Shown here: positions 20,337 to 63,877 of the stretch, piece after piece | Position numbering within the stretch: position 1 is the stretch's first letter | Layout: each line of letters starts with the position of its first letter | Origin: a virus | IMG/VR virus record: IMGVR_UViG_3300020079_000009 | DNA: 64,000 nt | Strand: one strand, 5' to 3' | Made by a program: the position numbers and the translations under genes | The notes under the pieces: generated by a model | The model's database searches: none | Seen by the model: the letters and a program-made list of their open reading frames with translations, nothing else | What the model was told of the DNA's origin: nothing

Positions 20337-20545
20337 TCTTGTGGGGAGTTATTTCCACAATTACATTTATTCCACATATGCCTGCATGCAAAGAGCTTAG
20401 CAGCGCAGATAAATTTACAGTTATGGTCATATTTTTAATCGGAGGGCCATTTTTTGCAATATCTAATATTCTTGAAGAATTATTAAATTGCATTATGCCA
20501 CCTGGTTGGGGAGGAGACGACGATGATTTCTTCAACAAATACTAA
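20312..20545 (+). CDS. small two-TM membrane protein
   Basis: 77-aa ORF with two hydrophobic segments and acidic C-terminus GGDDDDFF. Confidence 0.35.
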   Translation: MAGTWIAIILWGVISTITFIPHMPACKELSSADKFTVMVIFLIGGPFFAISNILEELLNCIMPPGWGGDDDDFFNKY

Positions 20546-46933: not shown

Positions 46934-47165
46934 TAAATTCCATAAGGCTCTCTGACTCGCTTCAGAGAGCCTTTTTGATTTTTTATAAAAAATATGTTAT
47001 AATATTTATAGAAAGTGATAAAGAAATCAAAATGAGTGCGAGCGGTACTCAAGGCGTTAAAAGGTAAGCCTACTGGGCACCAAAGAGCTTATTTGATTTT
47101 TTTATAAAAATATGTTATAATATATATGTAAGATAAAGAAAGAACAATAAAGCGAGGTAGATACT

Positions 47166-48767
47166 ATGTTATTTAAGGAAGTTTTGGCTGCGGCCGATAA
47201 GGAACTGATTGAAGCGTGGATTTCTGACTACGCACTCGACGAAGTAAACTGTGGCGGCTCCAAAGCCTCCCTTGAGTACATTCTTCGTTATTGGAACTCC
47301 AATAAGGCTCGTCTGTTCAAGCTGATGGGCGAAAATCTCATTCTCTCCAAGGACATCACCGTTGTCAAGGAAGCCGGCGATATGGAGCGTGAGATTGGCG
47401 AACTGCTCAGCTTCCGTGAGGACGGTCCTTCCATGCGTCCTTTCTATATGAATCTGAGCAACTGCGTTGACCGCAACTGGCGTGAAATGGGCGTCAATCG
47501 TTGGTGCATCATGGACCTGTTCAGCTCTTACTACCTCGCTCGCAACAGTTATGAGGGCGACAGCTTCACTGTCAATGTGCCTAATGATGGCAAGCCTATT
47601 CAGGTTCAGCGTGGTTGCAAGCCAGTTAAGATTCTCGGCAAGATTGCACAGGCGTGGAATGTGGACGGCTTTGAAGAGTTCCGTCTGTGCCACTCTCGTG
47701 TATTGAACCAGAAGATGCTGAAAGGCGAACTCTGCATCTCTATCCATCCTATGGACTATATGACCATGAGCGACAACGATTGCGACTGGGACTCTTGTAT
47801 GTCTTGGCGTAATACGGGTTGCTATCGCCGTGGTACTGTTGAGATGATGAACTCCGAGTGTGTCGTGGTTGCTTATCTCCGTGCTAAGGAAGATATGCGT
47901 TTCTACGACAAGTACTGGAACAACAAGAAGTGGCGTCAGCTCTTCATCGTTCAGCCCGAGTGCGTTGTTGGTGTTAAGGGTTACCCTTACTGCCACGACG
48001 GTCTGGCTAACGAGGTTATCAACTGGCTCTGCGCTCTGGCTCAGAAGAACCTCGGTTGGGAATACAAGGAGCAGGTTTACACTATGGAACACGAAAACTG
48101 GTTCCAGGTGGATGGCGAGAATTGGAAGTTCCAGTTCTGGTGCGACACTATGTACAATGACTTCGGCTCTTGCTCTCACCAGATTCGTGTGACTGCTAAT
48201 CCGGAGAGTGTATATGAGCACAAGTACCAGTTCAACTACTCCGGTCCGGAAGTATGTATGTACTGCGGCCGTTCCGATGTGGACTTCGATGGTGAAGAGC
48301 CTCTGACTTGCAACAGCTGCTCTGACTATGTCTACTGCTGCTGCTGTGACAACCGCATCAACCCTGACGATGCAGTCGAAGTTGATGGTAGCTGCTACTG
48401 TGACTACTGTTATGACGAGCACGTCGCAGAGTGCCCTGTGTCCGGCAGGGAACATCACGATTCCAACTTCGTGACTCTGAATGTAATTCCGGACGACTTC
48501 CCCGAAGAGAAGCTGAATGACCGTGAGTGTCCTTACTCCGTTCGAGTTTGTCTGGATGATATCTATGACGACTTTAATGTGAGTGATGAACAGTTCAGCA
48601 AGTTCTTCACCATTGACCCTAAAAATCGTGAGTTCCATCGTTATGGTAGCTTCTGGCGTGAGCTGTACTATGTACGACTTGGGGAGCTGACCGAGAGAGG
48701 TCGAGAATTGTTCGACCTCTGTGATGAGGCTGATATGGAATGGTTCCTAAAGCATCATAAGAACTAA
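47166..48767 (+). CDS. large Cys-rich protein, paralog X1 of 53076..54488
   Basis: Shared blocks with X2: ISIHPMDYMTMSDNDCDWDSCMSW / FSVHPLDFLSTSENTYNWRSCHA, KKWRQLF / KKWRMLL, and C-terminal zinc-ribbon clusters. Class-2 promoter at 47097-47129. Confidence 0.5.
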   Translation: MLFKEVLAAADKELIEAWISDYALDEVNCGGSKASLEYILRYWNSNKARLFKLMGENLILSKDITVVKEAGDMEREIGELLSFREDGPSMRPFYMNLSNCVDRNWREMGVNRWCIMDLFSSYYLARNSYEGDSFTVNVPNDGKPIQVQRGCKPVKILGKIAQAWNVDGFEEFRLCHSRVLNQKMLKGELCISIHPMDYMTMSDNDCDWDSCMSWRNTGCYRRGTVEMMNSECVVVAYLRAKEDMRFYDKYWNNKKWRQLFIVQPECVVGVKGYPYCHDGLANEVINWLCALAQKNLGWEYKEQVYTMEHENWFQVDGENWKFQFWCDTMYNDFGSCSHQIRVTANPESVYEHKYQFNYSGPEVCMYCGRSDVDFDGEEPLTCNSCSDYVYCCCCDNRINPDDAVEVDGSCYCDYCYDEHVAECPVSGREHHDSNFVTLNVIPDDFPEEKLNDRECPYSVRVCLDDIYDDFNVSDEQFSKFFTIDPKNREFHRYGSFWRELYYVRLGELTERGRELFDLCDEADMEWFLKHHKN

Positions 48768-48865
48768 TTGATTTTTTCAAAAAAAAATGTTATAATATAT
48801 ATGTAAGGTAAAGAAAAAACCTTAACTCAAAATCAAAAAAAATTATAGAAAGAGGTACAAAGACT

Positions 48866-49279: not shown

Positions 49280-49343
49280 GATTGGCGATTTGAGGGGACA
49301 GGGAAACCTGTTCCCTCTTTTTTAATTGAATAAGGAGGTTATT

Positions 49344-50750
49344 ATGTCTGGTAAAAAGATGTTTGCATTTTGGCTTGGGTGCATATGCATGTTCTTTACG
49401 ACATTGTTCCCAAGTTTGGACATTGCGTTCGCTGGGTTAAGTGGCGATGCAATTACAATGATTGGCATATTCATTGGTGCTATCATTATGTGGCTTTTTG
49501 TGGATGTAGGCTGGCCGAGCTTACTGGTGCTATTTTCATTGACGCAGTTGACTGATGTGACCATATCGATAGTAATGGCGAATTCATTGGGTAATAATAC
49601 TATTGCCTTCCTCATTTTCAGTTGCGCGCTGACATATGCGCTCTCCACGACTGGACTTTTGAGACGAATCGCATTATGGTTTGTTAATACACCAATAGCA
49701 AAGAAATCCCAATGGGCATTTGCGGCAATGTATTTCGTATCCATTTTGGTAATCGGAAGCTTCATTTCCCCGACCGTTTTATTCGTTTTATTCTTTGCTT
49801 TGGCGAAGGAAATTTACGACATTAATGGATTCCAAAAGGGCAACGCATATGCAAAGATGTTAATGATTGGTACGGCTATTATGACTTCAATATCTTGCGC
49901 GATGACTCCTATTGCTCACACCTTCCCGCTCATGGCGATTGGCTTTTATGAATCTGCGACTGAGGAAGTTATTAACTGGATTGATTATATGCTGATTGGT
50001 ATTCCAGCTGGATTGTGTGCGGCGGGGGCAACCTTTGGCGCTTTATGGTTAGGTTTTAGGAAACAAGTGGCTCATGTTCAAGTCGCTGCTTCTGAAAATA
50101 CGACTAAGATTACTCGAAAAGAGATTGTTGCTTTAATTGTTTTCTTGGTTGTTGTGGCAATGTGGATGGTCTCTGGTTTATTCCCAGATTGGCTTCCAAT
50201 ATTAAAAACTTGGACCACAACTGTTCCTCCTATGCTGGGCGTCATTGTTCTTTGTTTGTTTGGCATTTTGAAATTCAATGATGCAATGAAGAATGGCGTG
50301 CCTTGGACAGCAATTATTTTGTGTGCATCAACTCTTGCAGTTGGTAAATGGTTAACTTCTGCGGACCTCGGCATTACCGCGGCGATTGGCGAGGGTCTTG
50401 GAGCAATTATTGGTCAACCTTCAATGTTAGGTTTGATTTTTGCAATAGTATGCTTCACTGTAGTAATGACTAATTTAATGTCAAATATTGTTACGACTAC
50501 CGTTTCATATAATTTACTGACACCAATAGTAATTGCAACTGGAGTTATTTCGCCTGTTTTGTCTACTATCTTGATTGGTATGTGCGCATCAATGGCTTAT
50601 GCAACTCCACCAGCTATCGCTCATGTAGCACTTGCGGCAGGGTCTGAATATTGTGATTCCAAAGATATGTTGATATATGGTGGTATTGCAACGGTTATTT
50701 CGATTGTATTCGTTGTAGGTTTTGGATTCATATTTGGAGGTATTATATGA
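49344..50750 (+). CDS. polytopic membrane transporter (ArsB/NhaD/DASS anion-permease superfamily-like)
   Basis: RBS AAGGAGG before ATG 49344; ~12 predicted TM segments; hairpin-tip-like motifs ANSLGNNT and LMSNIVTT. Confidence 0.5.
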   Translation: MSGKKMFAFWLGCICMFFTTLFPSLDIAFAGLSGDAITMIGIFIGAIIMWLFVDVGWPSLLVLFSLTQLTDVTISIVMANSLGNNTIAFLIFSCALTYALSTTGLLRRIALWFVNTPIAKKSQWAFAAMYFVSILVIGSFISPTVLFVLFFALAKEIYDINGFQKGNAYAKMLMIGTAIMTSISCAMTPIAHTFPLMAIGFYESATEEVINWIDYMLIGIPAGLCAAGATFGALWLGFRKQVAHVQVAASENTTKITRKEIVALIVFLVVVAMWMVSGLFPDWLPILKTWTTTVPPMLGVIVLCLFGILKFNDAMKNGVPWTAIILCASTLAVGKWLTSADLGITAAIGEGLGAIIGQPSMLGLIFAIVCFTVVMTNLMSNIVTTTVSYNLLTPIVIATGVISPVLSTILIGMCASMAYATPPAIAHVALAAGSEYCDSKDMLIYGGIATVISIVFVVGFGFIFGGII

Positions 50751-51010
50751 TGAAACCAGAAGATGAAGCTATGTTGGACACTTTACGAATGACAATTCAG
50801 TTAATTGATACTGATATTTTGCATTTATTGGAGGAGCGCATCGACGCTGTAAAGCAAGTTGGTGCAATTAAAGAATTATATAATGCTCCTATTTATGTCC
50901 CAGAAGTAGAGAAAAGAAAAATTGAAGCTTTGGCTGCGGCCTGTAAGTATCCCGGTCTGGTCGAAACAATTTGGCCGGTAATTATGTGTTACGCTCGTAG
51001 CGTTGAATAA
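50747..51010 (+). CDS. chorismate mutase (AroQ class)
   Basis: LRMTIQLIDTDILHLLEERIDAVKQVGAIK..PIYVPEVEKRKIEAL matches the AroQ helix-1/2 consensus (R..ID..D..LL.LL.ER...VG..K...P..D..RE). Start overlaps the transporter stop. Terminator 51016-51045. Confidence 0.6.
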   Translation: MMKPEDEAMLDTLRMTIQLIDTDILHLLEERIDAVKQVGAIKELYNAPIYVPEVEKRKIEALAAACKYPGLVETIWPVIMCYARSVE

Positions 51011-51177
51011 TATAGAAACCCATCTCAAATTTTGAGATGGGTTTTTTGTTTCACAAAGCTGCTCCGGGCGCTGAGGGGCGTGCAAATCGTAAGGCGAGAA
51101 TAAAATTGCCATTGGGTAATTTTTATTGACTTTCTTACAAAAAAATGGTACAATATAAGTAAAAGGAGGAGTTTAAG

Positions 51178-51954
51178 ATGAAATATTGCTTAAATTGCAG
51201 ACAAGAAAAAGCATATCTCCAAAAGGCAGATGAAATTAAAGTTGAATTTAGAGATAGAAAGATTATTCCGGATTTAATTGATAATTATCCAGACGCAACA
51301 ATTATTTTAATGTGTTACTCTGGAGAAGAGATTAACTGGAATGATTGCGTTCGTTGGAATGTTTTAGCTAAAGGTAATTTTATTATGTGTTTATCTTCTT
51401 TTGAAGATGCTAAAGTATGTAAAGAAAAAGAATTAAAGTTTTATATTGGTTATCCAATTAAAACTTTTTATGAATTGAACGCTTTAAGAGATTTGGGCGT
51501 TTGTTATGTGCGCCTGGCCGAACCTTTATTCTTCCAAATGGATGAAGTTAAGTTGTTTAATATTCCTGTTAGAGCAATTCCAAACATTGCATTTACAGAT
51601 ACCTTTCCTCATCCCGATGGGGTTTGCGGCACATGGATTCGTCCGGAAGATGTAGATACATATGCTCCATATGTTGAAACAATTGAGTTTGAGGATTGTG
51701 ATAATCGCAAAGAACAAGCTCTATATAGATTATACGCAGAACAAAAGAGCTGGCCCGGAGATTTATCAATGGTTATTACAAACTTAGAATATCCAGCTGT
51801 GAATCGTATGATTCTTCCAGATATGGCAAGAAGTCGTTTAAATTGCGGCCAGAAGTGTCAAATGAATAGGCATTGTAAGATATGTTATCGTGCTTTTGAT
51901 TTGGCTGACCCGGAAAAAATTAGAGACTATATGGAAGCTACCGACCAATCTTGA
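51178..51954 (+). CDS. hypothetical Cys-containing protein (258 aa)
   Basis: Promoter at 51118-51150 (TTGACT-17-TGGTACAAT), RBS AAGGAGGAG. Confidence 0.45.
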   Translation: MKYCLNCRQEKAYLQKADEIKVEFRDRKIIPDLIDNYPDATIILMCYSGEEINWNDCVRWNVLAKGNFIMCLSSFEDAKVCKEKELKFYIGYPIKTFYELNALRDLGVCYVRLAEPLFFQMDEVKLFNIPVRAIPNIAFTDTFPHPDGVCGTWIRPEDVDTYAPYVETIEFEDCDNRKEQALYRLYAEQKSWPGDLSMVITNLEYPAVNRMILPDMARSRLNCGQKCQMNRHCKICYRAFDLADPEKIRDYMEATDQS

Positions 51955-52017
51955 TTTTTTATTAAATTTTTGATATAATATATATATAAGAATATGAAGA
52001 GAGGTAGGTTGTTGTGA

Positions 52018-53073
52018 ATGAGAATTTTACGAGAAAATGAATTGAAGACTTTTGAACAAATCGTATCTTTAAAGCAACCGGCTTTGAAAAAGGTAATGTC
52101 CAATTTCCTCAGAAAGAAGTATAGCAAGGTTATTGAAACCAAGGATTATATTGTTGCGGTTGGTGAGATTCCGATTGCTTTGACGGCGCATATGGATACT
52201 GTCTTTGACAAGCCAGTTTCTGAAATGTTTTATGATACTCGCAAGAATGTAATTTGGAGTCCTGAAGGATTGGGTGCAGATGATAGAGCTGGTGTGTATG
52301 CAATTATTCAGATTCTGCGTGCAGGTTACCGTCCTCATGTAATCCTTACCACCGATGAAGAAAAAGGTTGTTTGGGTGCTGGAGAACTTGCAAAATTAAG
52401 CTGTCCTTTTGAGGATTTGAAGTATGTTATTGAACTGGATAGACGTGGTACAAATGACTGTGTATTCTATGATTGTGAGAACCCTCAGTTTGTTGATTAT
52501 GTTGAGCAGTTCGGCTTTACTGAGGCCTATGGTAGCTTTTCTGACATCTGTGAGTTTTGTCCTGAATGGGGAGTTGCTGGTGTAAATCTGTCTATTGGAT
52601 ACCGTGATGAACACAGTCATCAAGAACTTTTGTTTGTAAGCCCTATGTTCGCAACAATCGAAAAAGTTAAAAAGATGTTGGACGAGGAAGAAATTCCTTT
52701 CTTCAAGTATATTCCCAGTCCCTACGCTTGGAATTGGAAAAACTGGAAGAAAGATGGGTGGGAAGAAAACTACTACTCTAAAGCGTATGGGTACGGTTGT
52801 TACTCCTATCCATATGATGATGAAGTCGTTTGTACGAAGTGTCATAAGACCTTCCTCGAAGAAGAAGTATTTCCAGTTAAACTCTTAGATGGTAAGACAG
52901 GCTGGTATTGTCCTGACTGTTTAGTTGATAATGTATCTTGGTGTAAATATTGTCAAGAGCCATTTGAGGTTGAACCTGGTACTGATATTAGTCTTGTGGA
53001 TGTTTGCCCCGACTGCGCAAAGAATCCAAAGCCTAAGTCCGATAAAAAGAAAAAAGGCAAGGGGAATAAATAA
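52018..53073 (+). CDS. M28/M42-family-like zinc aminopeptidase with C-terminal Cys-rich zinc ribbon
   Basis: Metal-ligand motifs AHMDTV, GADDRAGV, TTDEEKGCLGA; C-terminal CTKCH...CPDC...CKYC...CPDC. Confidence 0.55.
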   Translation: MRILRENELKTFEQIVSLKQPALKKVMSNFLRKKYSKVIETKDYIVAVGEIPIALTAHMDTVFDKPVSEMFYDTRKNVIWSPEGLGADDRAGVYAIIQILRAGYRPHVILTTDEEKGCLGAGELAKLSCPFEDLKYVIELDRRGTNDCVFYDCENPQFVDYVEQFGFTEAYGSFSDICEFCPEWGVAGVNLSIGYRDEHSHQELLFVSPMFATIEKVKKMLDEEEIPFFKYIPSPYAWNWKNWKKDGWEENYYSKAYGYGCYSYPYDDEVVCTKCHKTFLEEEVFPVKLLDGKTGWYCPDCLVDNVSWCKYCQEPFEVEPGTDISLVDVCPDCAKNPKPKSDKKKKGKGNK

Positions 53074-53075
53074 AC

Positions 53076-54488
53076 ATGGTTAATATTAAAGAAATCCAAG
53101 AGCAATTTAATAAAGTTATTTCACATTCTCAGGGCATTAATGAACCCCAAACTGACGAGCTTTTTAGCAGATGGCTTGAGGCTAAGAGAGACATTATTGA
53201 AGCGATGGATGGGCGTCTTATTTATACCATTCCACAAAAAGTCAGTTTTGAACTGAGCTATAAAGAGAAAATGAATCGAGTTAATGAGTTTATCGAGTCT
53301 GTTTCTATGACTTGGAGAAACAATGATTTGGCTTGTTTCATTGATGAAAATAAAGACGGTTTTTTCAGTAATGTTGTCGTTGAGAGTTTTACTGCGCCAA
53401 GGGGTGAAAAGATTCCGAAGGGCATGAAGCTCGTTAAGGCTTTTAAGTTCTTTGAAGATGACAAGATTACTTTGGAAGAAATTCAGAATCGTGCAAGTAT
53501 GATTATCCAAGAGGATAAGGTAGAAGGCTGGTTGTGTTTTTCAGTTCATCCTTTGGACTTTTTAAGTACGAGTGAAAACACATACAACTGGCGCTCTTGT
53601 CATGCGCTTGATGGCGAATATCGTTGCGGCAATTTATCTTATATGATGGATAAGTCTACTGTTATTTGTTACTTAAAGAGTGACAAAGACGATAACCATT
53701 TGCCGAATTTCCCAAGTGATGTTCCTTGGAACTCTAAGAAATGGAGAATGTTATTGTTCCTTAGCGATGCTTGGAATGCAATGTTTGCGGGCAGGCAATA
53801 TCCATTCTTTAGTGAAACTGCTTTAGAATCAGTATTGTATCACTCTATGAATGTGTTTAAGTTCCACGGACAGTGGAGTAAGTGGCATAATGATGAATTG
53901 CGCAACTTCAATTTTGCTGGAGATGAGGAACATGAAGATGAGATGTACTTCAGGAGTCCATATCTTCCAATTCGAGGGAGATTGTATCCTAAAGAAGAGC
54001 TGATTGAAGACTGTGAAAATCCGATGCACTTCAATGATTTGTTGAGAAGTTCTTGTTATATTCCATATTACTGTTGGAATAAATCATATTTCAGTGGTCA
54101 TAAAGAGATTCACTTTTTGATTGGTGGCGAAATTCCTTGTTTGCGCTGCGGCGAATATCCGGTCGCTCAGACAGATGATATGCTTTGTCGAGATTGCGAA
54201 CTCGAGTATGGGAGTTCTGAAGATGAAGCCTACATCACCTGCTCTTGTTGTGGACGAAGAATTTTATATGATGATTCTTGGTACGTCGAATCTTCAGGAG
54301 AAAATGTTTGTGAAGAATGTGCCAATAGAGAATGTAGAACCTGTGATAATTGCGGAGAACTTTATTGGAATAGCGATATAGTGTATGACAAGAAAAATCA
54401 TGACTATCGTTGTGAGCATTGTCACTCTGATAATGACGATAGACAAGAAAGGATGCAAGAGTTTTTTAGCTCATTGCTACCGTTCTAA
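53076..54488 (+). CDS. large Cys-rich protein, paralog X2 of 47166..48767
   Basis: See X1; coupled to the peptidase gene (stop/start 3 nt apart). Confidence 0.5.
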   Translation: MVNIKEIQEQFNKVISHSQGINEPQTDELFSRWLEAKRDIIEAMDGRLIYTIPQKVSFELSYKEKMNRVNEFIESVSMTWRNNDLACFIDENKDGFFSNVVVESFTAPRGEKIPKGMKLVKAFKFFEDDKITLEEIQNRASMIIQEDKVEGWLCFSVHPLDFLSTSENTYNWRSCHALDGEYRCGNLSYMMDKSTVICYLKSDKDDNHLPNFPSDVPWNSKKWRMLLFLSDAWNAMFAGRQYPFFSETALESVLYHSMNVFKFHGQWSKWHNDELRNFNFAGDEEHEDEMYFRSPYLPIRGRLYPKEELIEDCENPMHFNDLLRSSCYIPYYCWNKSYFSGHKEIHFLIGGEIPCLRCGEYPVAQTDDMLCRDCELEYGSSEDEAYITCSCCGRRILYDDSWYVESSGENVCEECANRECRTCDNCGELYWNSDIVYDKKNHDYRCEHCHSDNDDRQERMQEFFSSLLPF

Positions 54489-55155: not shown

Positions 55156-56961
55156 ATGATGTCAGAGAATCTATTATCGAATAAATATAAAGACCGTAGT
55201 CCGATGGATACAGTCAATTTAATTAAATCATTTTTCGAGAATAGTGGATTTAAAATCGGACATACAATGTTCCAGACTGAAATTGGGACTTGGACTTGCC
55301 ATGTAACTATTTCTTCCAATAACTTAGAGGTTCTTGGTAGTAATGGCAAGGGTATGACTCAAGAATTCGCTTTGGCCAGCGGCTACAGTGAAATGTTCGA
55401 GCGTTTTTCCAATAAAGTAGGATATATTAACAATCCTTACTTCCAAAGAAAAATTAGAGCCTTGAGAGAAGACTATGTATATTGTCCAGAAGAAAAGAAG
55501 ATTGATGCTTATGATATGGTTATTGAGAATCATATTTTAGACCAATATTATAGAACATTCTTGAAATCTGATGAAAATATGAAGAAGTTCTTTGAAATCA
55601 ATTATCCTGATGGCGCAATCGGCGTTCCTTTTACAAGCGTTTCTGACCCCACAAAGGTTAAGTATTTAGACCCAAGTATTATGCAGCGTGCTACTGGTAG
55701 TAATGGTATGGCGGCTGGTAATACAGAAGAAGAAGCTTTGAATCAAGGTTTGTCCGAGCTTTTTGAGCGCAAGGGAACTGTATTATTTTATAGTCAGCCA
55801 CAAGAGCATTATCGTGCGGTTGACCTTGAAACAATTACAAGAGAAGATTTTAGAGAAGCAGTAAGTAATATCGTTAATCGAGAGTTTGATTTTATTGTTA
55901 TGGATTTATCCCATAATTTTGGCATGCCAGTATTAGCTGGTTTGTTAATTGATAAAATTGGTTGTAATTGCCGTGTAAACTTCAGTGCCTTTCCAGTTTT
56001 TGATATCGCATTTGAAAGAATTTTAACTGAGTTATATCAAGGTATTGATAATATGAGAATGTATTGCTCTGGTTTTGAAGTTCCTGCAAAAACAAATAAA
56101 GCATCTTTTGTTTTGAATTTCTATGGAAACAATTATTCTCAAGCTAATTATATTCATGATGAATTTATTACTGAAAAAGTAGAGTATGTTCCTTATGATG
56201 TTTTGGCATATGAAAGTAAAGTGTTCGTAAATCCTGATAGTACAAATGTGAATTTATTGGATTACTATAAAAAGCTCTCCAAAGATTTGGGTTATGAATT
56301 CTTTTATTATAATTGCAGTCCTATCCCAAATGAGATGGCAGCTGTTTATATTTTAGGACCAGATTTTTGTTCTATTGAACAAATTCGTGAAAAGAATGCT
56401 CGTTTCATTAGTCCTATTATTGTTCAAGCATTGCTTATAATGTTTGAAAGAATGCAAAATTTAACCTCTTTAATTTGTGACTTAACTGACCATATTGGTG
56501 ACCAAGAGTATTATGATAAGCTTTATAATGAGTATAACTTATTTAGAAACTTATCTGCTAATACAAATGATTATGAACATTTTGGCGATTTATTATTGTC
56601 AACTTATGATAGCTGTCTGTTTAATGGAGAAGGTATTTCACCAATGTTCTCTGTTGAGCAAATGTTAAATAATGGAAATAATGGTCAAATTCCAACTGTT
56701 AATCCAAAGAGTTATCTTTATGGCATCCAGAAATTATATGCTTCTATTATGGTATATAAGTGTAATGGATACAGCAATAAAGAGATTAAAGATATTTTCA
56801 AAACTTTGTTTGGTACAGAATTAACTTATCCTCAAATTGAAGATGTACCTAATATGGACATTGCATTGATGGATTGTTATTTCTATCCAACTTCTGCCTT
56901 TTACAATAGTGATATTTACGATAATATTGTAAAAGCATATTTTAGCGTAAAGGAGGAGTAA
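55156..56961 (+). CDS. YcaO-domain protein (azoline-forming cyclodehydratase / thioamidation family)
   Basis: Signature GSNGKGMTQEFALASGYSEMFERFSN matches the YcaO ATP-binding motif (GKG...A..SA..E..ER). Size 601 aa. Promoter TTGACT-18-TATAAT at 55105-55134. Confidence 0.75.
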   Translation: MMSENLLSNKYKDRSPMDTVNLIKSFFENSGFKIGHTMFQTEIGTWTCHVTISSNNLEVLGSNGKGMTQEFALASGYSEMFERFSNKVGYINNPYFQRKIRALREDYVYCPEEKKIDAYDMVIENHILDQYYRTFLKSDENMKKFFEINYPDGAIGVPFTSVSDPTKVKYLDPSIMQRATGSNGMAAGNTEEEALNQGLSELFERKGTVLFYSQPQEHYRAVDLETITREDFREAVSNIVNREFDFIVMDLSHNFGMPVLAGLLIDKIGCNCRVNFSAFPVFDIAFERILTELYQGIDNMRMYCSGFEVPAKTNKASFVLNFYGNNYSQANYIHDEFITEKVEYVPYDVLAYESKVFVNPDSTNVNLLDYYKKLSKDLGYEFFYYNCSPIPNEMAAVYILGPDFCSIEQIREKNARFISPIIVQALLIMFERMQNLTSLICDLTDHIGDQEYYDKLYNEYNLFRNLSANTNDYEHFGDLLLSTYDSCLFNGEGISPMFSVEQMLNNGNNGQIPTVNPKSYLYGIQKLYASIMVYKCNGYSNKEIKDIFKTLFGTELTYPQIEDVPNMDIALMDCYFYPTSAFYNSDIYDNIVKAYFSVKEE

Positions 56962-56965
56962 CAGT

Positions 56966-57970: not shown

Positions 57971-57985
57971 GGAGAGTTTTGACAT

Positions 57986-59362
57986 ATGAAATGCGGATTA
58001 AATTGTATGAATAAAGAGCGCAGTGTCGCGGTGTTTTACACCTGCGGCACCTGCAATCTAAAATGTAGATATTGTAACATCGATAAGAATCCTGTGTTAG
58101 CTAAGATTGATGAAAAGTTAGCAGAGAGTTTTGAAGGCGATTACTATTTTAACCAAATGAAAGAGTGGTTTCCAAATATTGACCAGCTTCGTAAGATTGA
58201 AACTTGGGGTGGAGAGCCATTTTTGCATATGGAAAGAATTTATAATTTGATTACTCAAGTTATTGAATATTATCCATATTTCGACCAGTTCTTCTCTTCT
58301 ACAAACTTCTCATATCCAGAGTGGACAAATAAAGTATTTGGTTTAACTGACCAGTTTGCCAAGTACCCAGAAAGAACTTTTAGATTCACTTTACAGCTTT
58401 CTATGGACGGTCCTGAGTATATCAATGACCCAAATAGAGGTAAGGGCGTAACCAAGAGATGTATTGAAAATTTCAATAAGTTAATGGATATGATTCCTGA
58501 AAGACTTCCAAATAATGTTGTTTTAGAAATCGTATTCAAGCAGACTTTGGATACTTATTCAGTAAGAGAACTTTGCGATAAGCAAAAGATTATTGAGTAT
58601 TTCCAATTTTTTGAGAATTTTTATTTGAGAATCAATGAGTTAAATCTGCCAAATGTATTGATGTCTTGTACAGTACCTAACACTGCCGTACCTGCGCCAG
58701 TCACTAAGAAAGATGGCGAAATCTTTGCTGAGTTCTGTCGTCTTTGCAATGAAATTGAAGTTGAGAATTATAGAAACCATTACTTTAGATACTATGAAAG
58801 TATCATGCCTTATTTTGGCGAACCAATGCCTTTAAATGCAACATATGAACACTGTTCTACTTTGTGCGGCAGTGGGTCTATTATGGTTTGTTTATTGCCA
58901 GATAATCTGGTATCTACTTGCCATGAAGGATTTACTTCATTATATGAAGACTATAAGAAGTTTGCACAATCTTCTGGACGTGTTGAAGATGGTACTATTA
59001 ACTTTAACCAGTGGGTAAATGAAGATGGTCCTGTATATGTGTTGGATGCAGAAGGTTATAAAGAGCATGAGAGATTTATGGGTTATTATAACCATCCATG
59101 GTCAACTGCGCGAATGGTTAACACGACCGCTTTGATTCGTACTCTCGCTCTTGCAGATGAGATTGAAAGAAAATACTTGAATGAAGATGAAGCGTTGCGT
59201 GCTGCGCATTTTATGGCAGGTCATTCTTCTTATTGTATCAAGGATAATTATAATGTAACAGGTTCTCATAGCTTGACACCTGTTGGTTTGTTTAAGTTAT
59301 TATTAAACGGAGCGAAAGCTTATATTGAAGAAGGAGAAAGGAGAGTAAGATCGAATGGATAA
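57986..59362 (+). CDS. radical SAM enzyme with C-terminal SPASM/twitch-like Cys cluster
   Basis: CGTCNLKCRYC (Cx3Cx2C), GGEPFL SAM-binding motif, C-terminal CSTLCGSGS...C..C cluster. Confidence 0.8.
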   Translation: MKCGLNCMNKERSVAVFYTCGTCNLKCRYCNIDKNPVLAKIDEKLAESFEGDYYFNQMKEWFPNIDQLRKIETWGGEPFLHMERIYNLITQVIEYYPYFDQFFSSTNFSYPEWTNKVFGLTDQFAKYPERTFRFTLQLSMDGPEYINDPNRGKGVTKRCIENFNKLMDMIPERLPNNVVLEIVFKQTLDTYSVRELCDKQKIIEYFQFFENFYLRINELNLPNVLMSCTVPNTAVPAPVTKKDGEIFAEFCRLCNEIEVENYRNHYFRYYESIMPYFGEPMPLNATYEHCSTLCGSGSIMVCLLPDNLVSTCHEGFTSLYEDYKKFAQSSGRVEDGTINFNQWVNEDGPVYVLDAEGYKEHERFMGYYNHPWSTARMVNTTALIRTLALADEIERKYLNEDEALRAAHFMAGHSSYCIKDNYNVTGSHSLTPVGLFKLLLNGAKAYIEEGERRVRSNG

Positions 59363-60806
59363 TGTGATTGTAAATATTCATGACGACAAGGAATTATTCC
59401 AGCAAGAACAAGATAAATTATTGCAAGTTGTATTAGATAAACGATTCTTCTCTACTTGGAGACCAAATAATAGTGCGATGGATGTACCTCGTGGGCATGT
59501 GGAGTTATTTATTACTTCTCAGTGTAACCAAAAGTGTGAGTATTGTTATTTGGTTAAATATCCTGACCTTTATCCAAAGGAATTTTTAAACCCAGAGCAA
59601 ATCAAAGAAAACCTTAAAATTTTTTATGACTGGGTTATTGCAAATAATTATTGTATTCCTCAGATTGAGTTTTATACTGGCGAAATCTGGCATAGTAAAT
59701 TTGGAACTGATATCTTAGATATTACTTTTGATTATCTTTTAGCTGGATTGCAAGTGCGCCAGTTCATGATTCCTTCTAACTGCAGTTTTCTTAAAGACCG
59801 TAAGAGAGCTGCAATTATTCAAGGATATATTGACAAGTTTAGAGCTATTGGTGTTCCACTTATTTTCTCTATCTCTATTGATGGAAAGTATGTAGATAAT
59901 GATATTCGCCCTAATGTCAATGCGAAAATTACTCATGATGATGACTTTTATGATATGGCGTTTTCATTTTCTAAGCACAATGGATTTGGCTTCCATCCGA
60001 TGATTGCGGCAGCCTCTATTGAAATGTGGCCAGAGAATTATAAGTGGTGGAAAGAAATGCTAAAGAAATATGGCTTGACTCTTGGAGAAGTTATGATGCT
60101 TGAAGTAAGAAATGGAGACTGGACTCCAGAGAAAATTCAAGCGTTCTTAGATTTTGAGGATATTTTAATTGATGGTCTTTTAGAGCGTAATGATAATGAC
60201 CCAATTAAAGCTTGTATTTTCGGTTTTGGTATTAACCAAACTTATTATGATAAGAATTTGTTAGCTATCGAAGACGAAGAAATGAGTGCATATACGCCTT
60301 ATCATTTAGCAGAAACTGATGAATTTCTTGGATGTACGTTACAAAATACTTTAACAGTTCGTTTAGGTGATTTAGCAATTTGCCCTTGCCATAGAACTGC
60401 TTATAATAAAAATCTATATGGTTGGTTTACTGTTGAAAATGGGGCAATTACAGGTATTAAATCTAATAATCCTCATCAGGCTATTAGAAATCTAATGGTA
60501 AATAACCATGTGGGAACTTTAGGTTGCGACTCTTGTTTCTATAATAGATATTGTATGGGTGGATGCCCTGGTCAACAAATGGAAAAATTTAATGACCCAT
60601 ATCATTTAGACCCTACGGTTTGCAACTTCTTAAAGAGTAAGATTAAGCATTTGATTAAACGTTACCATGATTTAGGATTTTTGGATTGGTTAAAAGAAAA
60701 CATTTCTCCTTACCATGTATTTTATCCAAATGCGCAGAATCTTATTCGTTTATATGAAAATGTAATGGAGGAGGAGCGTCATGAGCGAATGGCAGAATTT
60801 AGATAA
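59355..60806 (+). CDS. radical SAM/SPASM-domain enzyme (second)
   Basis: SQCNQKCEYC (Cx3Cx2C); C-terminal SPASM-like CPCHRT...GCDSCFYNRYCMGGCPG. Overlaps the rSAM1 stop by 8 nt. Confidence 0.8.
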   Translation: MDNVIVNIHDDKELFQQEQDKLLQVVLDKRFFSTWRPNNSAMDVPRGHVELFITSQCNQKCEYCYLVKYPDLYPKEFLNPEQIKENLKIFYDWVIANNYCIPQIEFYTGEIWHSKFGTDILDITFDYLLAGLQVRQFMIPSNCSFLKDRKRAAIIQGYIDKFRAIGVPLIFSISIDGKYVDNDIRPNVNAKITHDDDFYDMAFSFSKHNGFGFHPMIAAASIEMWPENYKWWKEMLKKYGLTLGEVMMLEVRNGDWTPEKIQAFLDFEDILIDGLLERNDNDPIKACIFGFGINQTYYDKNLLAIEDEEMSAYTPYHLAETDEFLGCTLQNTLTVRLGDLAICPCHRTAYNKNLYGWFTVENGAITGIKSNNPHQAIRNLMVNNHVGTLGCDSCFYNRYCMGGCPGQQMEKFNDPYHLDPTVCNFLKSKIKHLIKRYHDLGFLDWLKENISPYHVFYPNAQNLIRLYENVMEEERHERMAEFR

Positions 60807-61236: not shown

Positions 61237-62187
61237 ATGGCGAACTTTTATTGTCCAGGCTTTTATGAAAATGCCGTTATGTATAAAAGACTCTTATGGT
61301 TCCAAAAGTATTATCCACAGTGTTGGGTAGATGGCGCAAAAATTACTCATATTTTTGGTTGTTTCCCTAACTGTATTTGGAATGGAGGGTCTACTTGGAT
61401 TCAATATCCGCCCGCAAAACCTATCATGAGAAATGTATTCCAGTGGTATAAAGACCAAGGTATTATTATTCAGTTAACTTTTACTAATCCTATGTTACAG
61501 GAAACTGATGTATACGACAGATATGCTAATTGCATTTTAGATGTTGCGGTTGAGATTTTAGGATATGAGCAATTAGAAGTATTAGTTTCTGCTCAGTGTC
61601 TTGAGGATTATATTCGCAATAAATATCCAAAAGCCAATGTAACAAGAAGTATTGTTGGTGCAACTGGCTGCGAAAACACTTGTAGCACAATTGAAGATTA
61701 TGTCGCGCTATTGGATAAATATCCTCGTATTGTTGTACCTCGTAAAAAGGTTAATGATATTGATTTTATTCAAGGCTTTCCTCAGGAATTAAAGCATCGA
61801 GTAGAGTTACTTTGTACAGATGCCTGTCCCATTGATTGCCCTCGAATTTATCAGCATTATACTAAATTAGGTATGGAACAGTTATGGGAAGATGTTTCTT
61901 TTGAAGAAGTAATTTGCACGGGTTTTGCAAAAGATAATCCTTTCCATGAAGCAACTTATTCTCAATATAAGATTACTCCACCTGAAATTGCGGCATATGA
62001 AGCTCTTGGATGGTCAGAGTTCAAAATTAGCGGTCGTATTTCTACTGCGGCAGCTCCTTTGAGATTGGTACCATATTTAATTAAGCCAGAATTTTGGGAA
62101 GATGTTTATATCAACATTTATTTCGATATTTTTGGTGATAATAGCTATTTCCCAGACTATGATTTCTGGTCAGATTCAACTATTTAA
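61237..62187 (+). CDS. hypothetical Cys-containing protein (316 aa)
   Basis: Class-2-like promoter at 61171-61204, RBS AAAGGAGA. Confidence 0.45.
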   Translation: MANFYCPGFYENAVMYKRLLWFQKYYPQCWVDGAKITHIFGCFPNCIWNGGSTWIQYPPAKPIMRNVFQWYKDQGIIIQLTFTNPMLQETDVYDRYANCILDVAVEILGYEQLEVLVSAQCLEDYIRNKYPKANVTRSIVGATGCENTCSTIEDYVALLDKYPRIVVPRKKVNDIDFIQGFPQELKHRVELLCTDACPIDCPRIYQHYTKLGMEQLWEDVSFEEVICTGFAKDNPFHEATYSQYKITPPEIAAYEALGWSEFKISGRISTAAAPLRLVPYLIKPEFWEDVYINIYFDIFGDNSYFPDYDFWSDSTI

Positions 62188-62280: not shown

Positions 62281-62352
62281 AATGCAATAGTCAAACGGTT
62301 AAGACATTACCCTTCCACGGTGAAAGTTGGGGTTCGATTCCCCATTGCGATT
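62281..62352 (+). tRNA. tRNA-Gly(UCC) (no encoded CCA; one A-A mismatch in acceptor stem)
   Basis: Manual fold: acceptor AATGCAA/TTGCGAT, U8A9, D-loop with GG, anticodon stem TTACC/GGTGA, loop CTTCCAC (U33, UCC, A37), T-arm TGGGG-TTCGATT-CCCCA. Flanked by complementary AAGGCAC (62251) and GTGCCTT (62358). Driven by class-2 promoter at 62196-62226. Confidence 0.55.
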
Positions 62353-62628
62353 CAGAGGTGCCTTGGAAATAAAAATTCTTTTTGATTTTTTATAAAAAAT
62401 ATGTTATAATATATATGTAAGATAAAGAAAGCCCTTTAATCTTAGTCGTAAAGGAAAGACGCGAGTCCGGCCATCGTATTCACTGTGAGTTCCTCTCGTA
62501 AGAGGGTTGACGGTAGTAGTGCCCAGCGCAACTGGTGAGTAAACAGGTCCGAGGGTATGAATAGGTGTCACGACCACCTAACTTTCTTTGTCTGATATAT
62601 GTATTATATAGGAAAGGAGAAATTATCA

Positions 62629-63801: not shown

Positions 63802-63877
63802 TGCCCTGTAGCTCAGTCGGTAGAGCACGCGGCTGTTAACCGCGCTGTCGTGGGTTCGAGCCCCACCGGGGCAGCCA
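63802..63877 (+). tRNA. tRNA-Asn(GUU) with encoded CCA
   Basis: TGCCCTG-TA-GCTC-AGTCGGTA-GAGC-A-CGCGG-CTGTTAA-CCGCG-CTGTC-GTGGG-TTCGAGC-CCCAC-CGGGGCA-G-CCA; canonical cloverleaf. Class-2 promoter at 63672-63704. Confidence 0.85.

What the first reader, a model, noticed from the sequence alone, without database searches (positions are those of the whole stretch)
49326..51010. Phage-borne polytopic anion-permease-like transporter translationally coupled to an AroQ chorismate mutase
Seen in sequence: a 469-aa protein with ~12 hydrophobic segments and hairpin-tip-like SNT-type motifs, whose stop overlaps the start of an 87-aa protein matching the AroQ chorismate mutase helix consensus. Inference: a transporter plus shikimate-pathway enzyme operon on a phage is an unusual auxiliary metabolic pairing (aromatic amino-acid or dicarboxylate metabolism).
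Basis: partly seen in the sequence, partly recalled or inferred. Interest (0 to 1): 0.5.

Follow-up and report, generated by a model that had tools for sequence, protein, structure and literature searches.

The report
Phage transporter–chorismate mutase cassette
A large gut phage carries a tightly coupled anion-transporter and chorismate-mutase gene pair that recurs in many related phages, usually near phage U32-type iron-sulfur enzymes, so it most likely supplies them with prephenate rather than making aromatic amino acids.

Summary
Window 49344-50750 (+) encodes a 468-aa divergent DASS-family transporter. Its TGA stop overlaps the ATG of an 87-aa AroQ (CM_2) chorismate mutase at 50747-51010. 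The pair is bracketed by two hairpin terminators inside an unmistakable phage: portal, terminase-like protein and phage sigma factor.

The pair is not a one-off. Of 54 non-redundant homologous transporter loci, 29 have a CM_2 gene directly downstream. These are phage or phage-like, apart from one bacterial locus (L035). The 25 without it are bacterial or unclassified. Both genes are under strong purifying selection. In one phage the CM was replaced by a different CM_2 allele while the pairing was kept.

Peptidase-U32-family genes accompany the cassette and sometimes overlap the transporter's start; the window's copy is at 61237-62187. Cultured T-even-like phages independently have U32 followed by CM_2, inside the published 5-hydroxycytosine DNA-modification cluster. 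Published work shows that U32 Fe-S enzymes depend on prephenate, the product of chorismate mutase.

Best model (p about 0.45): a prephenate-supply cassette for anaerobic phage U32 chemistry. The transporter's substrate is unknown; chorismate or prephenate import is an attractive but untested idea.

The parts
49292..49317 (+). Terminator-like hairpin (11-bp stem, 7 GC pairs, then TTTTTTAATT) ending 14 nt before the transporter's RBS. No sigma-70-like promoter fits between it and the start codon.
49332..49338 (+). Ribosome-binding site AAGGAGG, 5 nt before ATG 49344
   Evidence: read directly from the sequence
49344..50750 (+). Divergent DASS-family anion transporter, 468 aa (the maximal ORF starts at TTG 49326)
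   Evidence: Pfam Na_sulph_symp 58.2 bits (cutoff 27) and CitMHS 56.7 bits; TIGR00785 5e-33 but below its cutoff; family profile aligns end to end with VcINDY, E 5e-17; dN/dS 0.04 against L001
49767..49775 (+). First hairpin-tip motif S-P-T (aa 142-144), at the position of VcINDY S150-N151-T152. The Asn is replaced by an invariant Pro.
50481..50489 (+). Second hairpin-tip motif S-N-I (aa 380-382), at the position of VcINDY S377-N378-T379
50736..50740 (+). GGAGG ribosome-binding site for the chorismate mutase, inside the 3' end of the transporter gene
50747..51010 (+). Stand-alone AroQ (CM_2) chorismate mutase, 87 aa; its ATG overlaps the transporter's TGA (ATGA)
   Evidence: Pfam CM_2 1.7e-14, profile positions 1-79 of 80; R14, R31, K42 and E55 conserved, matching EcCM R11', R28, K39 and E52; AF2 pLDDT 91, three helices; top 22 PDB matches are all chorismate mutases or CM-like domains; dN/dS 0.02
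51016..51044 (+). Hairpin (14-bp stem AAACCCATCTCAAA/TTTGAGATGGGTTT) followed by TTTGTTT, 5 nt after the CM stop; it closes the two-gene unit. The next promoter-like site is at 51126-51154.
   Evidence: the scan lists it on the minus strand; the plus-strand T-run is read directly from the sequence
61237..62187 (+). U32-superfamily (TIM-barrel, Cys-rich) protein, 316 aa; proposed consumer of the CM's product
   Evidence: phmmer 6e-10 to a Pfam-positive U32 paralog in L010; AF2 pLDDT 93; the only PDB match with E<=1e-3 is 5d88, a U32 peptidase; hhalign 98.4% with the Pfam-positive U32 of Serratia phage LC53; invariant W48, G50-G51, C197, C201, H207, C227, K263, G266-R267, with N49 and E190 nearly invariant
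59355..60806 (+). Radical SAM/SPASM-like protein, 483 aa; it travels with the U32-like gene and recurs within 10 kb of the cassette in 10 distinct loci
57986..59362 (+). Radical SAM (twitch/SPASM maturase-like) protein, 458 aa; context gene whose membership of the module is uncertain

Best explanation
SHOWN: a two-gene, terminator-bracketed cassette in a large phage (about 200 kb) that probably infects gut Clostridia. It encodes a divergent DASS-fold anion transporter and, translationally coupled to it, a stand-alone AroQ chorismate mutase. The pair is conserved and under purifying selection across many phages.

INFERRED (p about 0.55): the mutase converts host chorismate into prephenate. The purpose is not amino-acid synthesis. 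Prephenate is the consumable oxygen-donor or co-substrate of U32-family Fe-S enzymes, which these phages encode (window 61237-62187, next to radical SAM partners). These enzymes would carry out O2-independent hydroxylation-type chemistry in a strictly anaerobic host.

SPECULATIVE (p about 0.25): the transporter, always placed just before the mutase, feeds the same pool by importing a dicarboxylate. Chorismate or prephenate itself is the most economical candidate, since both are dicarboxylates. The hairpin-tip substitutions (SNT to SPT and SNI) remove polar groups that VcINDY is reported to use to bind Na+ and small dicarboxylates (from my own knowledge).

The target of the U32-like enzyme is unknown. 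It could be a pyrimidine in DNA or nucleotides, as in the RB69-type 5-hydroxycytosine cluster, or a peptide, as the radical SAM/SPASM and YcaO neighbours suggest.
For: Identity.

Conservation of the pair: a CM_2 lies within 50 nt downstream of the transporter in all 17 phage or viral loci first fetched, with one exception (L043, 416 nt, with a DUF4406 gene between), and in 28 of the metagenome loci (two through in-frame TAG codons). That is 29 of 54 non-redundant transporter lineages. The 25 lineages without CM are bacterial wherever context or record title is available. dN/dS is 0.04 and 0.02. In L044 the transporter is 87-91% identical to L006 and L040 but the CM only 42-43%, so the CM was replaced and the pairing kept. 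CM-linked transporters occupy at least three places in the transporter tree, including one true bacterial operon, L035.

U32 link: U32-like genes lie within 10 kb in the window, L001, L006, L010, L011, L040-44, L043, L104 and L108. They lie immediately upstream of the transporter (overlapping it in L010) in L010, L077, L090, L102/103 and L105, spread over both phage clades. All 6 IMG/VR contigs with the cassette also carry a U32-like gene, out of about 18 such contigs in 2.9 million. None of the 25 CM-less lineages has one.

Independent replication: in cultured Straboviridae a Pfam-positive U32 gene (44.5 and 42.8 bits against a cutoff of 22.4) is followed by a CM_2. The CM_2 overlaps it in Serratia phage LC53 and Shewanella phage Thanatos-1, and lies one gene further on in Yersinia phage fHe-Yen9-01 and Proteus phage Pm5461. 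These CMs share the unusual E-(V/L)-E motif (EcCM R51 replaced by V or L) with the window's CM.

Literature: prephenate is required for, or donates oxygen to, the U32 proteins UbiU/V, TrhP and RlhA, and a CM domain alone restores their function. One prephenate yields phenylpyruvate plus CO2 per hydroxylation in the proposed mechanism (PMC10990095, PMC6599085, PMC5727448). RB69 gp50 (5d88-like) sits unexplained in the 5-hydroxycytosine cluster, whose known hydroxylase needs O2 (PMC13326640). A phage CmoA uses prephenate for genome-wide DNA modification, and its authors flag prephenate availability as an open question (PMC12783734).
Against: The association is one-directional. About 12 of 18 U32-like-bearing IMG/VR contigs have no detected cassette. 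None of 3 contexts sampled from the U32 side has one within 10 kb. Mosigvirus and Marfavirus have U32 without CM.

The gut phages are related to each other, so co-occurrence partly reflects shared descent.

No U32 enzyme has been shown in vitro to use prephenate (PMC10990095).

The window's own U32-like copy is 10.5 kb away and does not reach the Pfam threshold on its own.

The window's CM has R51 replaced by V, S84 by A and Q88 by E, and scores below every NCBIfam chorismate-mutase cutoff, so its activity is unproven.

Nothing measured here speaks to the transporter's substrate. Its closest bacterial homologs sit in operons with a GH65 phosphorylase, an M55 peptidase and a sugar-isomerase-like TIM barrel, with no shikimate link. 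No U32-CM or transporter-CM fusion protein was found.
Confidence: 0.45

Rival explanations
1. Classical auxiliary metabolic genes. The mutase boosts phenylalanine and tyrosine synthesis for phage protein production. The transporter separately imports C4-dicarboxylates, citrate or another anion as carbon and energy during infection. The two are adjacent only because they were captured together.
For: Chorismate mutase has been listed as a viral auxiliary gene for aromatic amino-acid synthesis in the rumen virome (PMC10465536). The transporter belongs to a family whose characterised members carry di- and tricarboxylates or sulfate. Bacterial homologs of the transporter function without any CM.
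Against: A mutase alone makes no amino acid, and no prephenate dehydratase, dehydrogenase or aminotransferase was seen in any locus. Accidental adjacency does not explain retention of the pair through complete turnover of flanking genes, the replacement of the CM by another CM_2 allele (L044), the repeated appearance of the pairing at separate places in the transporter tree, or the U32-CM_2 pairs in unrelated phages that lack a transporter.
Confidence: 0.25
2. Host takeover by chorismate diversion. The mutase drains chorismate away from host folate, menaquinone, siderophore or other chorismate-derived products, and the transporter exports the resulting prephenate dicarboxylate.
For: Strict coupling of a dicarboxylate-type carrier to an enzyme whose product is a dicarboxylate. 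From my own knowledge, secreted chorismate mutases are used by eukaryotic pathogens to rewire host chorismate pools, and some DASS members are exchangers.
Against: It does not explain the U32 association. No evidence bears on the direction of transport. Draining a pathway that is probably already repressed in a nutrient-rich gut seems of little benefit.
Confidence: 0.08
3. The CM_2 protein is not mainly an enzyme. It is a ligand-sensing or accessory subunit that binds chorismate or prephenate and gates or stabilises the transporter (or the U32 enzyme), like the CM-like regulatory domain of Bacillus and Geobacillus DAHP synthases.
For: The ATGA overlap suggests stoichiometric co-production. The model superposes as well on the regulatory CM-like domains 5gmu, 5go2 and 5j6f (TM 0.81-0.83) as on true mutases. 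The non-canonical V54 and E87 and the sub-threshold NCBIfam scores fit altered function.
Against: The four core catalytic residues are invariant or nearly so across 108 family members, and the divergent cassette CMs keep the full canonical set including R51, S84 and Q88, which argues for retained catalysis. No fusion of CM_2 to the transporter or to U32 was found.
Confidence: 0.08
4. Artefact: bacterial DNA mis-assembled into a phage contig, or a prophage-flanking host operon.
For: The closest cellular homologs are in Clostridia MAGs at 53% identity. One CM-positive locus (L029) is binned in a bacterial MAG.
Against: Phage-family genes flank the pair on both sides within the window. The same arrangement occurs on independent assemblies, including contigs of 204.6, 136, 138 and 142-169 kb and six IMG/VR viral contigs. 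L029 is a 2.4-kb fragment whose CM matches the phage clade-B type.
Confidence: 0.01

Closest known systems
VcINDY / DASS (SLC13-type) Na+-coupled di- and tricarboxylate transporters (PDB 4f35, 5uld)
   Same: The family profile aligns colinearly over about 435 of 468 residues (E 5e-17 to 3.5e-19). Both hairpin tips are at the same positions. The second motif, S-N-I followed by TTT, resembles the 'humanised' VcINDY S-N-V-A-TTT.
   Different: Only about 114 bits against TIGR00785, below its 198.6 cutoff. The first tip is S/A-P-T with an invariant Pro in place of the Asn that, from my own knowledge, binds Na+ and substrate. Substrate and coupling ion are unknown. It is encoded by a phage and always followed by a chorismate mutase.
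EcCM (PheA N-terminal domain, PDB 1ecm) and stand-alone AroQ mutases (T. thermophilus 2d8d)
   Same: Three-helix AroQ protomer (TM 0.79-0.88, rmsd 1.2-1.3 A). Equivalents of R11', R28, K39 and E52 are conserved.
   Different: R51 is replaced by V, S84 by A or T, and Q88 by E, and the chain ends exactly on that Glu. There is an extra invariant Arg (R84). It scores below all NCBIfam equivalog cutoffs. The EcCM sequence and residue roles are from my own memory.
Prephenate-dependent U32 Fe-S systems: TrhP (tRNA ho5U34), RlhA (23S rRNA ho5C2501), UbiU/UbiV (anaerobic ubiquinone)
   Same: A U32-superfamily protein together with dependence on chorismate mutase activity is the published logic (PMC6599085, PMC5727448, PMC10990095). 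The phage proteins share the fold (5d88) and a conserved Glu plus Cys cluster.
   Different: In bacteria the mutase is the housekeeping PheA or TyrA and is not linked to the U32 gene. Here a dedicated CM, and in gut phages a transporter as well, is physically linked. The Cys spacing differs (E-x6-C-x3-C against TrhP E162-x7-C170-x6-C177). The substrate is unknown.
RB69-type arabinosyl-5-hydroxycytosine DNA-modification cluster of Straboviridae (PMC13326640)
   Same: It contains a U32/5d88-like protein (RB69 gp50). In the Winklervirus, Tegunavirus, Bragavirus and Thanatos relatives I examined, a CM_2 with the same E-(V/L)-E signature follows it, next to a ThyA-homolog gene that the paper assigns as the 5hodCMP synthase (in Thanatos the annotated neighbour is a dCMP hydroxymethyltransferase).
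   Different: There is no transporter. The hosts are facultative Gram-negatives. The demonstrated hydroxylase there is an O2- and flavin-dependent ThyA homolog. No ThyA homolog or glycosyltransferase lies in this window; the neighbours here are radical SAM/SPASM and YcaO proteins.
Phage CmoA-CmoX 5-carboxymethylcytosine system (PMC12783734)
   Same: It is a precedent for a phage pathway that consumes prephenate stoichiometrically for genome-wide modification, and its authors flag prephenate supply as an open problem.
   Different: The consumer is different (a SAM carboxylase, not U32). No CmoA-like gene was found in the window. That system is not reported to carry its own mutase or transporter.

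Membership tests
AroQ / CM_2 chorismate mutase (PF01817) | Match to the CM_2 profile above the curated threshold over the whole domain | tested here: met
   54.2 bits against a cutoff of 27, profile positions 1-79 of 80
AroQ / CM_2 chorismate mutase (PF01817) | All-helical three-helix AroQ protomer | tested here: met
   AF2 pLDDT 91, helices 4-45, 52-65 and 69-86; the top 22 Foldseek PDB matches are all chorismate mutases or CM-like domains, with 2d8d_B at TM 0.84/0.88 and rmsd 1.2 A
AroQ / CM_2 chorismate mutase (PF01817) | Core catalytic residues equivalent to EcCM R11', R28, K39 and E52 | tested here: met
   R14 (106 of 108), R31, K42 and E55 (108 of 108) in the family; invariant across all cassette-linked CMs
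AroQ / CM_2 chorismate mutase (PF01817) | Second-shell or ether-oxygen ligands equivalent to EcCM R51, S84 and Q88 | tested here: not met
   V54, A83 and E87 in the window's family. The divergent cassette CMs (L043, L045, L029, L035) do have R, S and Q. From my own knowledge, Glu at the Q88 position occurs naturally in yeast chorismate mutase.
AroQ / CM_2 chorismate mutase (PF01817) | NCBIfam equivalog-level score for a named chorismate mutase subfamily | tested here: not met
   Best domain model TIGR01799, 40.5 bits against a cutoff of 95.9; all 20 hits are below their cutoffs
AroQ / CM_2 chorismate mutase (PF01817) | Catalysis of chorismate to prephenate by a domain-swapped homodimer | not testable with these tools
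   Needs an enzyme assay or complementation of a pheA tyrA strain
DASS transporters (TC 2.A.47; PF00939; TIGR00785) | Match to Na_sulph_symp/CitMHS profiles above the curated thresholds | tested here: met
   58.2 bits (cutoff 27) and 56.7 bits (cutoff 31.9)
DASS transporters (TC 2.A.47; PF00939; TIGR00785) | NCBIfam TIGR00785 'dass' subfamily cutoff | tested here: not met
   114.4 bits against a cutoff of 198.6 (E 5e-33)
DASS transporters (TC 2.A.47; PF00939; TIGR00785) | End-to-end colinearity with a structurally characterised member | tested here: met
   Family profile against VcINDY: profile positions 26-460 align with chain residues 24-447, E 5e-17. The single sequence alone finds nothing in the PDB.
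DASS transporters (TC 2.A.47; PF00939; TIGR00785) | Two Ser-Asn-Thr motifs at the hairpin tips (substrate and Na+ binding) | tested here: not met
   S/A-P-T and S-N-I. P143, T144, S380, N381 and I382 are invariant in the 14-sequence alignment.
DASS transporters (TC 2.A.47; PF00939; TIGR00785) | About 11 transmembrane helices plus two re-entrant hairpins in an inverted repeat | tested here: inconclusive
   Hydropathy gives about 11-12 hydrophobic stretches. No structure was predicted for this protein.
DASS transporters (TC 2.A.47; PF00939; TIGR00785) | Anion transport, its substrate and its coupling ion | not testable with these tools
   Needs uptake assays
Peptidase U32 superfamily / prephenate-dependent Fe-S enzymes (for window 61237-62187) | Match to PF01136 above the curated threshold | tested here: not met
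   The window copy has no hit. Three of nine paralogs or orthologs in related phages pass (35.5 bits against 22.4).
Peptidase U32 superfamily / prephenate-dependent Fe-S enzymes (for window 61237-62187) | Demonstrable homology to Pfam-positive U32 proteins | tested here: met
   phmmer 6e-10 to L010:7578-8498; hhalign 98.4%, E 8e-15, 244 columns to the LC53 U32
Peptidase U32 superfamily / prephenate-dependent Fe-S enzymes (for window 61237-62187) | U32 TIM-barrel fold | tested here: met
   AF2 pLDDT 93, pTM 0.90. 5d88 is the only PDB match with E<=1e-3 (3e-5, prob 1.0, TM 0.62 normalised by the target).
Peptidase U32 superfamily / prephenate-dependent Fe-S enzymes (for window 61237-62187) | Conserved Glu and Cys motif (TrhP E162, C170, C177) that binds a 4Fe-4S cluster | tested here: inconclusive
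   E190 (nearly invariant), C197, C201, H207 and C227 are conserved, but with different spacing. Only three Cys are invariant. Motif residues are from PMC6599085.
Peptidase U32 superfamily / prephenate-dependent Fe-S enzymes (for window 61237-62187) | Dependence of activity on prephenate | not testable with these tools
   Needs anaerobic genetics or 18O-shikimate labelling

The most novel reading that the evidence does not exclude
These phages of strict anaerobes carry a self-sufficient, O2-independent hydroxylation system. One or more U32-type Fe-S hydroxylases, with radical SAM partners, use prephenate as the oxygen donor. A dedicated chorismate mutase makes the prephenate. A DASS transporter imports chorismate or prephenate, which would make it the first transporter identified for a shikimate-pathway dicarboxylate. 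By extension, the unexplained U32 protein (RB69 gp50 type, followed by CM_2 in several genera) of T-even-like phages would be the anaerobic counterpart of their O2-dependent 5-hydroxy-dCMP synthase, mirroring the TrhO/TrhP duality of tRNA hydroxylation.
Probability: 0.2. Interest if true: 0.85.

Novelty: new variant of a known kind. Interest (0 to 1): 0.65.

Why it matters
If the model is right, four things follow.

1. It identifies a metabolic bottleneck, prephenate supply, that phages solve with their own genes. The CmoA/5-carboxymethylcytosine study raised this as an open question.
2. It gives a concrete, testable function to the U32 'peptidase' gene found in 222 sequenced T-even-like phage records, which sits unexplained inside the 5-hydroxycytosine DNA-modification cluster.
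3. It offers natural gene linkage as new evidence for the still-unproven idea that U32 proteins are prephenate-dependent hydroxylases.
4. It provides the first candidate for a chorismate or prephenate transporter.

Polytopic transporters are also rare in phages. None of 50,697 GenBank phage records encodes a homolog of this one.

Tried and rejected
1. Contamination or a prophage edge: rejected. Phage genes lie on both sides and the arrangement recurs on independent large contigs.
2. TTG 49326 as the start codon: rejected in favour of ATG 49344, on the RBS, the terminator tail and the homolog lengths.
3. The Cys-rich 258-aa ORF directly after the CM (51178-51954) as another U32-like enzyme: rejected (hhalign probability 0.3%).
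4. Bacterial operon context as a clue to the transporter's substrate: uninformative. The neighbours are a GH65 phosphorylase, an M55 peptidase, a xylose-isomerase-like TIM barrel and an ABC exporter, or unrelated genes. The one bacterial DASS-CM operon (L035) adds an FAH-family hydrolase whose role I could not place.
5. A CmoA-like prephenate consumer, a ThyA homolog or Phe/Tyr pathway genes in the window: none found.
6. Rosetta-stone fusions of U32-like with CM_2 or the transporter: none among the best 150 of 3,378 representatives. The fusions found were with a HemN-like radical SAM domain, a weak GT-A-like domain, and tandem U32-like copies. My guess that P0415 carries a PqqD-type domain was not confirmed.
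7. Searches that failed technically:
   - single-protein IMG/VR scan;
   - alignment A3 was too divergent for pattern derivation;
   - the CM pattern scan recovered only one contig;
   - the afdb50 fold library was unavailable;
   - the profile of the U32-like family found nothing in the PDB by sequence.
8. Sampling from the U32 side did not recover the cassette, which limits the claim to a one-directional association.
Full report
**1. What is there**

The window encodes two adjacent + strand ORFs, 49326-50750 and 50747-51010. Several points set the real start of the first at ATG 49344:
- AAGGAGG lies at 49332-49338, 5 nt upstream.
- The upstream TTG sits in the T-tail of a hairpin.
- The closest full-length homologs are 468 aa.

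The TGA stop (50748-50750) overlaps the ATG (50747-50749) of the 87-aa ORF, and a GGAGG lies 6 nt upstream, inside the first gene. A terminator-like hairpin (49292-49317) sits just before the first RBS. A 14-bp hairpin followed by a T-run (51016-51044) sits 5 nt after the second stop, and the next promoter-like site is at 51126. So the pair is a discrete two-gene unit with no recognisable promoter of its own. It is presumably expressed by read-through from the promoter-like site at 48768.

The window is a phage. It has a portal (5.5e-81), a terminase-like protein, a phage sigma factor (3e-53), and phage-family genes on both sides of the pair. A 97%-identical copy lies on a 204.6-kb contig. The portal's nearest named relatives are gut phage phAss-1 and roughly 140-kb Enterococcus, Brevibacillus and Bacillus phages. 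The phAss-1 group is predicted to infect Clostridia (PMC10607447).

**2. What the two proteins are**

*The large protein.*
- It passes the Pfam thresholds for Na_sulph_symp and CitMHS.
- It falls short of the NCBIfam DASS cutoff (114 against 198.6 bits).
- A 14-sequence family profile aligns end to end with VcINDY (E 5e-17).
- The two hairpin-tip positions read S/A-P-T and S-N-I instead of S-N-T.
- Hydropathy gives about 11-12 hydrophobic stretches.

*The small protein.*
- It matches CM_2 over the whole profile (1.7e-14).
- Its AF2 model (pLDDT 91) is the three-helix AroQ protomer. The top 22 PDB matches are all chorismate mutases or CM-like domains.
- The equivalents of EcCM R11', R28, K39 and E52 are conserved (R14 in 106, the other three in all, of 108 family members).
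- R51, S84 and Q88 are V, A/T and E, and the chain ends on that Glu.
- More divergent cassette-linked CMs carry the full canonical set.
- The EcCM sequence and the residue roles are from my own memory.

**3. The pair is a conserved cassette**

No GenBank phage encodes a homolog of the transporter, but metagenomes hold many. I collected loci from assemblies, IMG/VR, GTDB genomes and JGI metagenomes and scanned them in a stop-tolerant way.
- A CM_2 gene lies -12 to +44 nt from the transporter's end in every CM-positive locus. The one exception is L043/L082, at 416 nt, with a DUF4406 gene between.
- After de-duplication at 95% identity there are 29 CM-linked and 25 CM-less transporter lineages.
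- The CM-less ones, wherever a title or context is available, are bacterial: Christensenellales and other Clostridia MAGs, with housekeeping or sugar/peptide operon neighbours.
- The flanking genes of the cassette differ completely between phages.
- dN/dS is 0.04 and 0.02 (window vs L001), and 0.12 and 0.07 (L006 vs L040).
- In L044 the transporter is 87-91% identical to L006 and L040 but the CM only 42-43%. The mutase was swapped and the arrangement kept.
- In a rough NJ tree, CM-linked transporters sit in two phage clades and in one true bacterial operon: L035, Peptoniphilaceae, DASS-CM_2-FAH hydrolase.
- Two loci (L104, L111; 25% GC) carry the CM and a U32-like gene with in-frame TAG codons and TAA true stops. 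This indicates stop-codon recoding, as reported for the phAss-1 group (PMC10607447).

**4. What travels with it**

A faint Pfam note in L010 led to a 306-aa protein that passes the Peptidase_U32 threshold (35.5 against 22.4 bits).

*Where its homologs occur.*
- Within 10 kb of the cassette: the window (61237-62187), L001, L006, L010 (three copies), L011, L040-44, L043, L104 and L108.
- Immediately upstream of the transporter: L010 (11-nt overlap), L077, L090, L102/103 and L105, spread across both phage clades.

*Is the window copy a U32 protein?* It does not hit Pfam on its own, but three lines tie it to the family:
- Its AF2 model (pLDDT 93) has 5d88, the only solved U32 protein, as its sole PDB match with E<=1e-3.
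- The family profile aligns with the Pfam-positive U32 of Serratia phage LC53 at 98.4% probability.
- The family keeps an invariant Cys/His cluster.

*Co-occurrence.*
- All six IMG/VR contigs with the cassette also carry a U32-like gene, out of about 18 such contigs in the collection.
- None of the 25 CM-less lineages has one.
- A 483-aa radical SAM/SPASM-like gene recurs with them in ten loci.
- One family member is fused to a HemN-like radical SAM domain.

**5. Independent replication in cultured phages**

The window's CM finds weak relatives in T4-like phages.
- In Serratia phage LC53, the CM-domain gene overlaps the end of a 389-aa 'putative peptidase' that is a Pfam-positive U32 (44.5 bits). 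A thymidylate-synthase homolog follows it.
- In Shewanella phage Thanatos-1, a 378-aa U32 (42.8 bits) overlaps an 85-aa CM_2.
- This U32 occurs in 222 phage records.
- Of six lineages examined, four have a CM_2 within two genes downstream: Winklervirus, Thanatos, Tegunavirus and Bragavirus. Two do not: Mosigvirus and Marfavirus.
- These CMs share the window's unusual E-(V/L)-E motif.

**6. Why this matters mechanistically**

- Published genetics show that the U32 Fe-S proteins UbiU/V, TrhP and RlhA need prephenate. A CM domain alone or added prephenate restores their function. Prephenate is proposed to be consumed (to phenylpyruvate plus CO2) at each hydroxylation (PMC10990095, PMC6599085, PMC5727448).
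- The Straboviridae cluster that holds the U32 gene, and in several genera the CM_2 after it, has just been shown to make arabinosylated 5-hydroxycytosine DNA. The demonstrated hydroxylase is an O2- and flavin-dependent ThyA homolog.
- The U32 member of that cluster (RB69 gp50) is listed only as a possible 'sugar or heterocycle reductase'. A term search of the text found no mention of prephenate, chorismate or U32 (PMC13326640).
- A phage CmoA also consumes prephenate for genome-wide DNA modification, and its authors call prephenate availability an open issue (PMC12783734).

**7. Best explanation and its limits**

I conclude that the cassette most likely exists to supply prephenate to phage U32-type enzymes working without oxygen. 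The transporter would feed the same pool. The status of each step is:
- *Shown:* gene identities, coupling, conservation, selection, and the association with U32.
- *Inferred:* that the CM is active and that U32 is its client.
- *Speculative:* that the transporter carries chorismate or prephenate.

Weaknesses:
- The association is one-directional. Many U32-bearing phages lack the cassette.
- The gut phages are related to each other, so co-occurrence is partly inherited.
- The window's U32-like gene is 10.5 kb away.
- The neighbours of the gut-phage U32-like genes (two radical SAM/SPASM proteins and a YcaO) look more like peptide-modification machinery than nucleotide enzymes, so the target is open.
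- Nothing here constrains the transporter's substrate.

I searched the held literature for phage DASS transporters, for chorismate or prephenate transporters, and for a phage U32-CM link, and found none.

**8. Verdict**

- The gene families are known. Their fixed pairing on phages, and the three-way link with U32 enzymes, appear to be undescribed.
- Novelty: a new variant of a known kind (an auxiliary gene cassette that serves a phage-encoded modification pathway).
- Interest: 0.65.

Noticed in passing
L116 (Serratia phage LC53, OP617331) 3742-5947; L117 (Shewanella phage Thanatos-1) 3862-5252; L120, L121: In cultured T-even-like phages a Pfam-positive U32 gene is followed by a CM_2 gene (overlapping it in two lineages, one gene further on in two others). 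It lies inside the cluster recently shown to make arabinosyl-5-hydroxycytosine DNA. The published study lists the U32 member (RB69 gp50) only as a possible reductase and does not mention prephenate. It may be an O2-independent route to 5-hydroxycytosine.
   Followed up: partly
L104 and L111 (metagenome contigs, 25% GC): CM at 11268 onward and U32-like at about 3900-4760 in L104: The CM and U32-like genes carry in-frame TAG codons while true stops are TAA, which indicates TAG recoding. The transporter gene in the same loci has no in-frame stop.
   Followed up: partly
window 55156-60806: A YcaO-domain protein (601 aa, 1.7e-30), a 334-aa unknown, and two radical SAM/SPASM maturase-like proteins (458 and 483 aa) lie just upstream of the U32-like gene. 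Together they look like a peptide- or protein-modification cluster. No precursor peptide was looked for.
   Followed up: partly
window 47166-48767 and 53076-54488: Two large Cys-rich proteins of the same PHROG (phrog_18912; 533 and 470 aa, with zinc-ribbon-like C-termini) lie on either side of the cassette. They recur near it in distant clade-B loci (L045, L101, L112). Function unknown.
   Followed up: partly
window 51178-51954: A 258-aa Cys-rich ORF lies directly after the cassette and has its own promoter-like site. It has no hit in Pfam, NCBIfam or PHROGs and is not related to the U32-like family. It recurs in L001, L101 and L105.
   Followed up: partly
window 52018-53073: An M28/M20-like metallopeptidase domain is fused to C-terminal zinc-ribbon-like repeats and a Lys-rich tail (phrog_34186, 8e-51). 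It recurs near the cassette in L045 and L105.
   Followed up: no
window 20523-21380: A FolD-like methylene-tetrahydrofolate dehydrogenase/cyclohydrolase (2.4e-41) is encoded by the phage. An NT5C-type deoxypyrimidine 5'-nucleotidase is also present among the + strand ORFs between 19.9 and 64 kb, but I did not map it to a specific ORF. Both hint at phage manipulation of nucleotide or one-carbon pools.
   Followed up: no
window 46975-47003, 47093-47121, 48768-48796, 51951-51979 (and 51126-51154): A recurrent promoter-like motif, TTGATT-17 nt-TATAAT with an extended -10 TG, precedes several genes in this region. The cassette itself lacks one and sits behind a terminator hairpin.
   Followed up: no
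L035 4905-7630 (Peptoniphilaceae MAG): This is a true bacterial operon: DASS transporter, CM_2 with the full canonical catalytic set, and an FAH-family (HpaG-like) hydrolase/decarboxylase. It may be a bacterial scavenging pathway for a chorismate-like dicarboxylate.
   Followed up: partly
window 62281-62353 and 63802-63877: tRNA-Gly(UCC) and tRNA-Asn(GUU) genes lie just downstream of the U32-like gene. Known U32 enzymes such as TrhP hydroxylate tRNA wobble uridines, so phage tRNA is another conceivable target.
   Followed up: no
P0465, P0460, P0337, P0356 (representative library hits): The U32-like family is large (3,378 representatives). It includes fusions to a HemN-like radical SAM domain and to a weakly glycosyltransferase-like domain, as well as tandem duplications.
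   Followed up: partly
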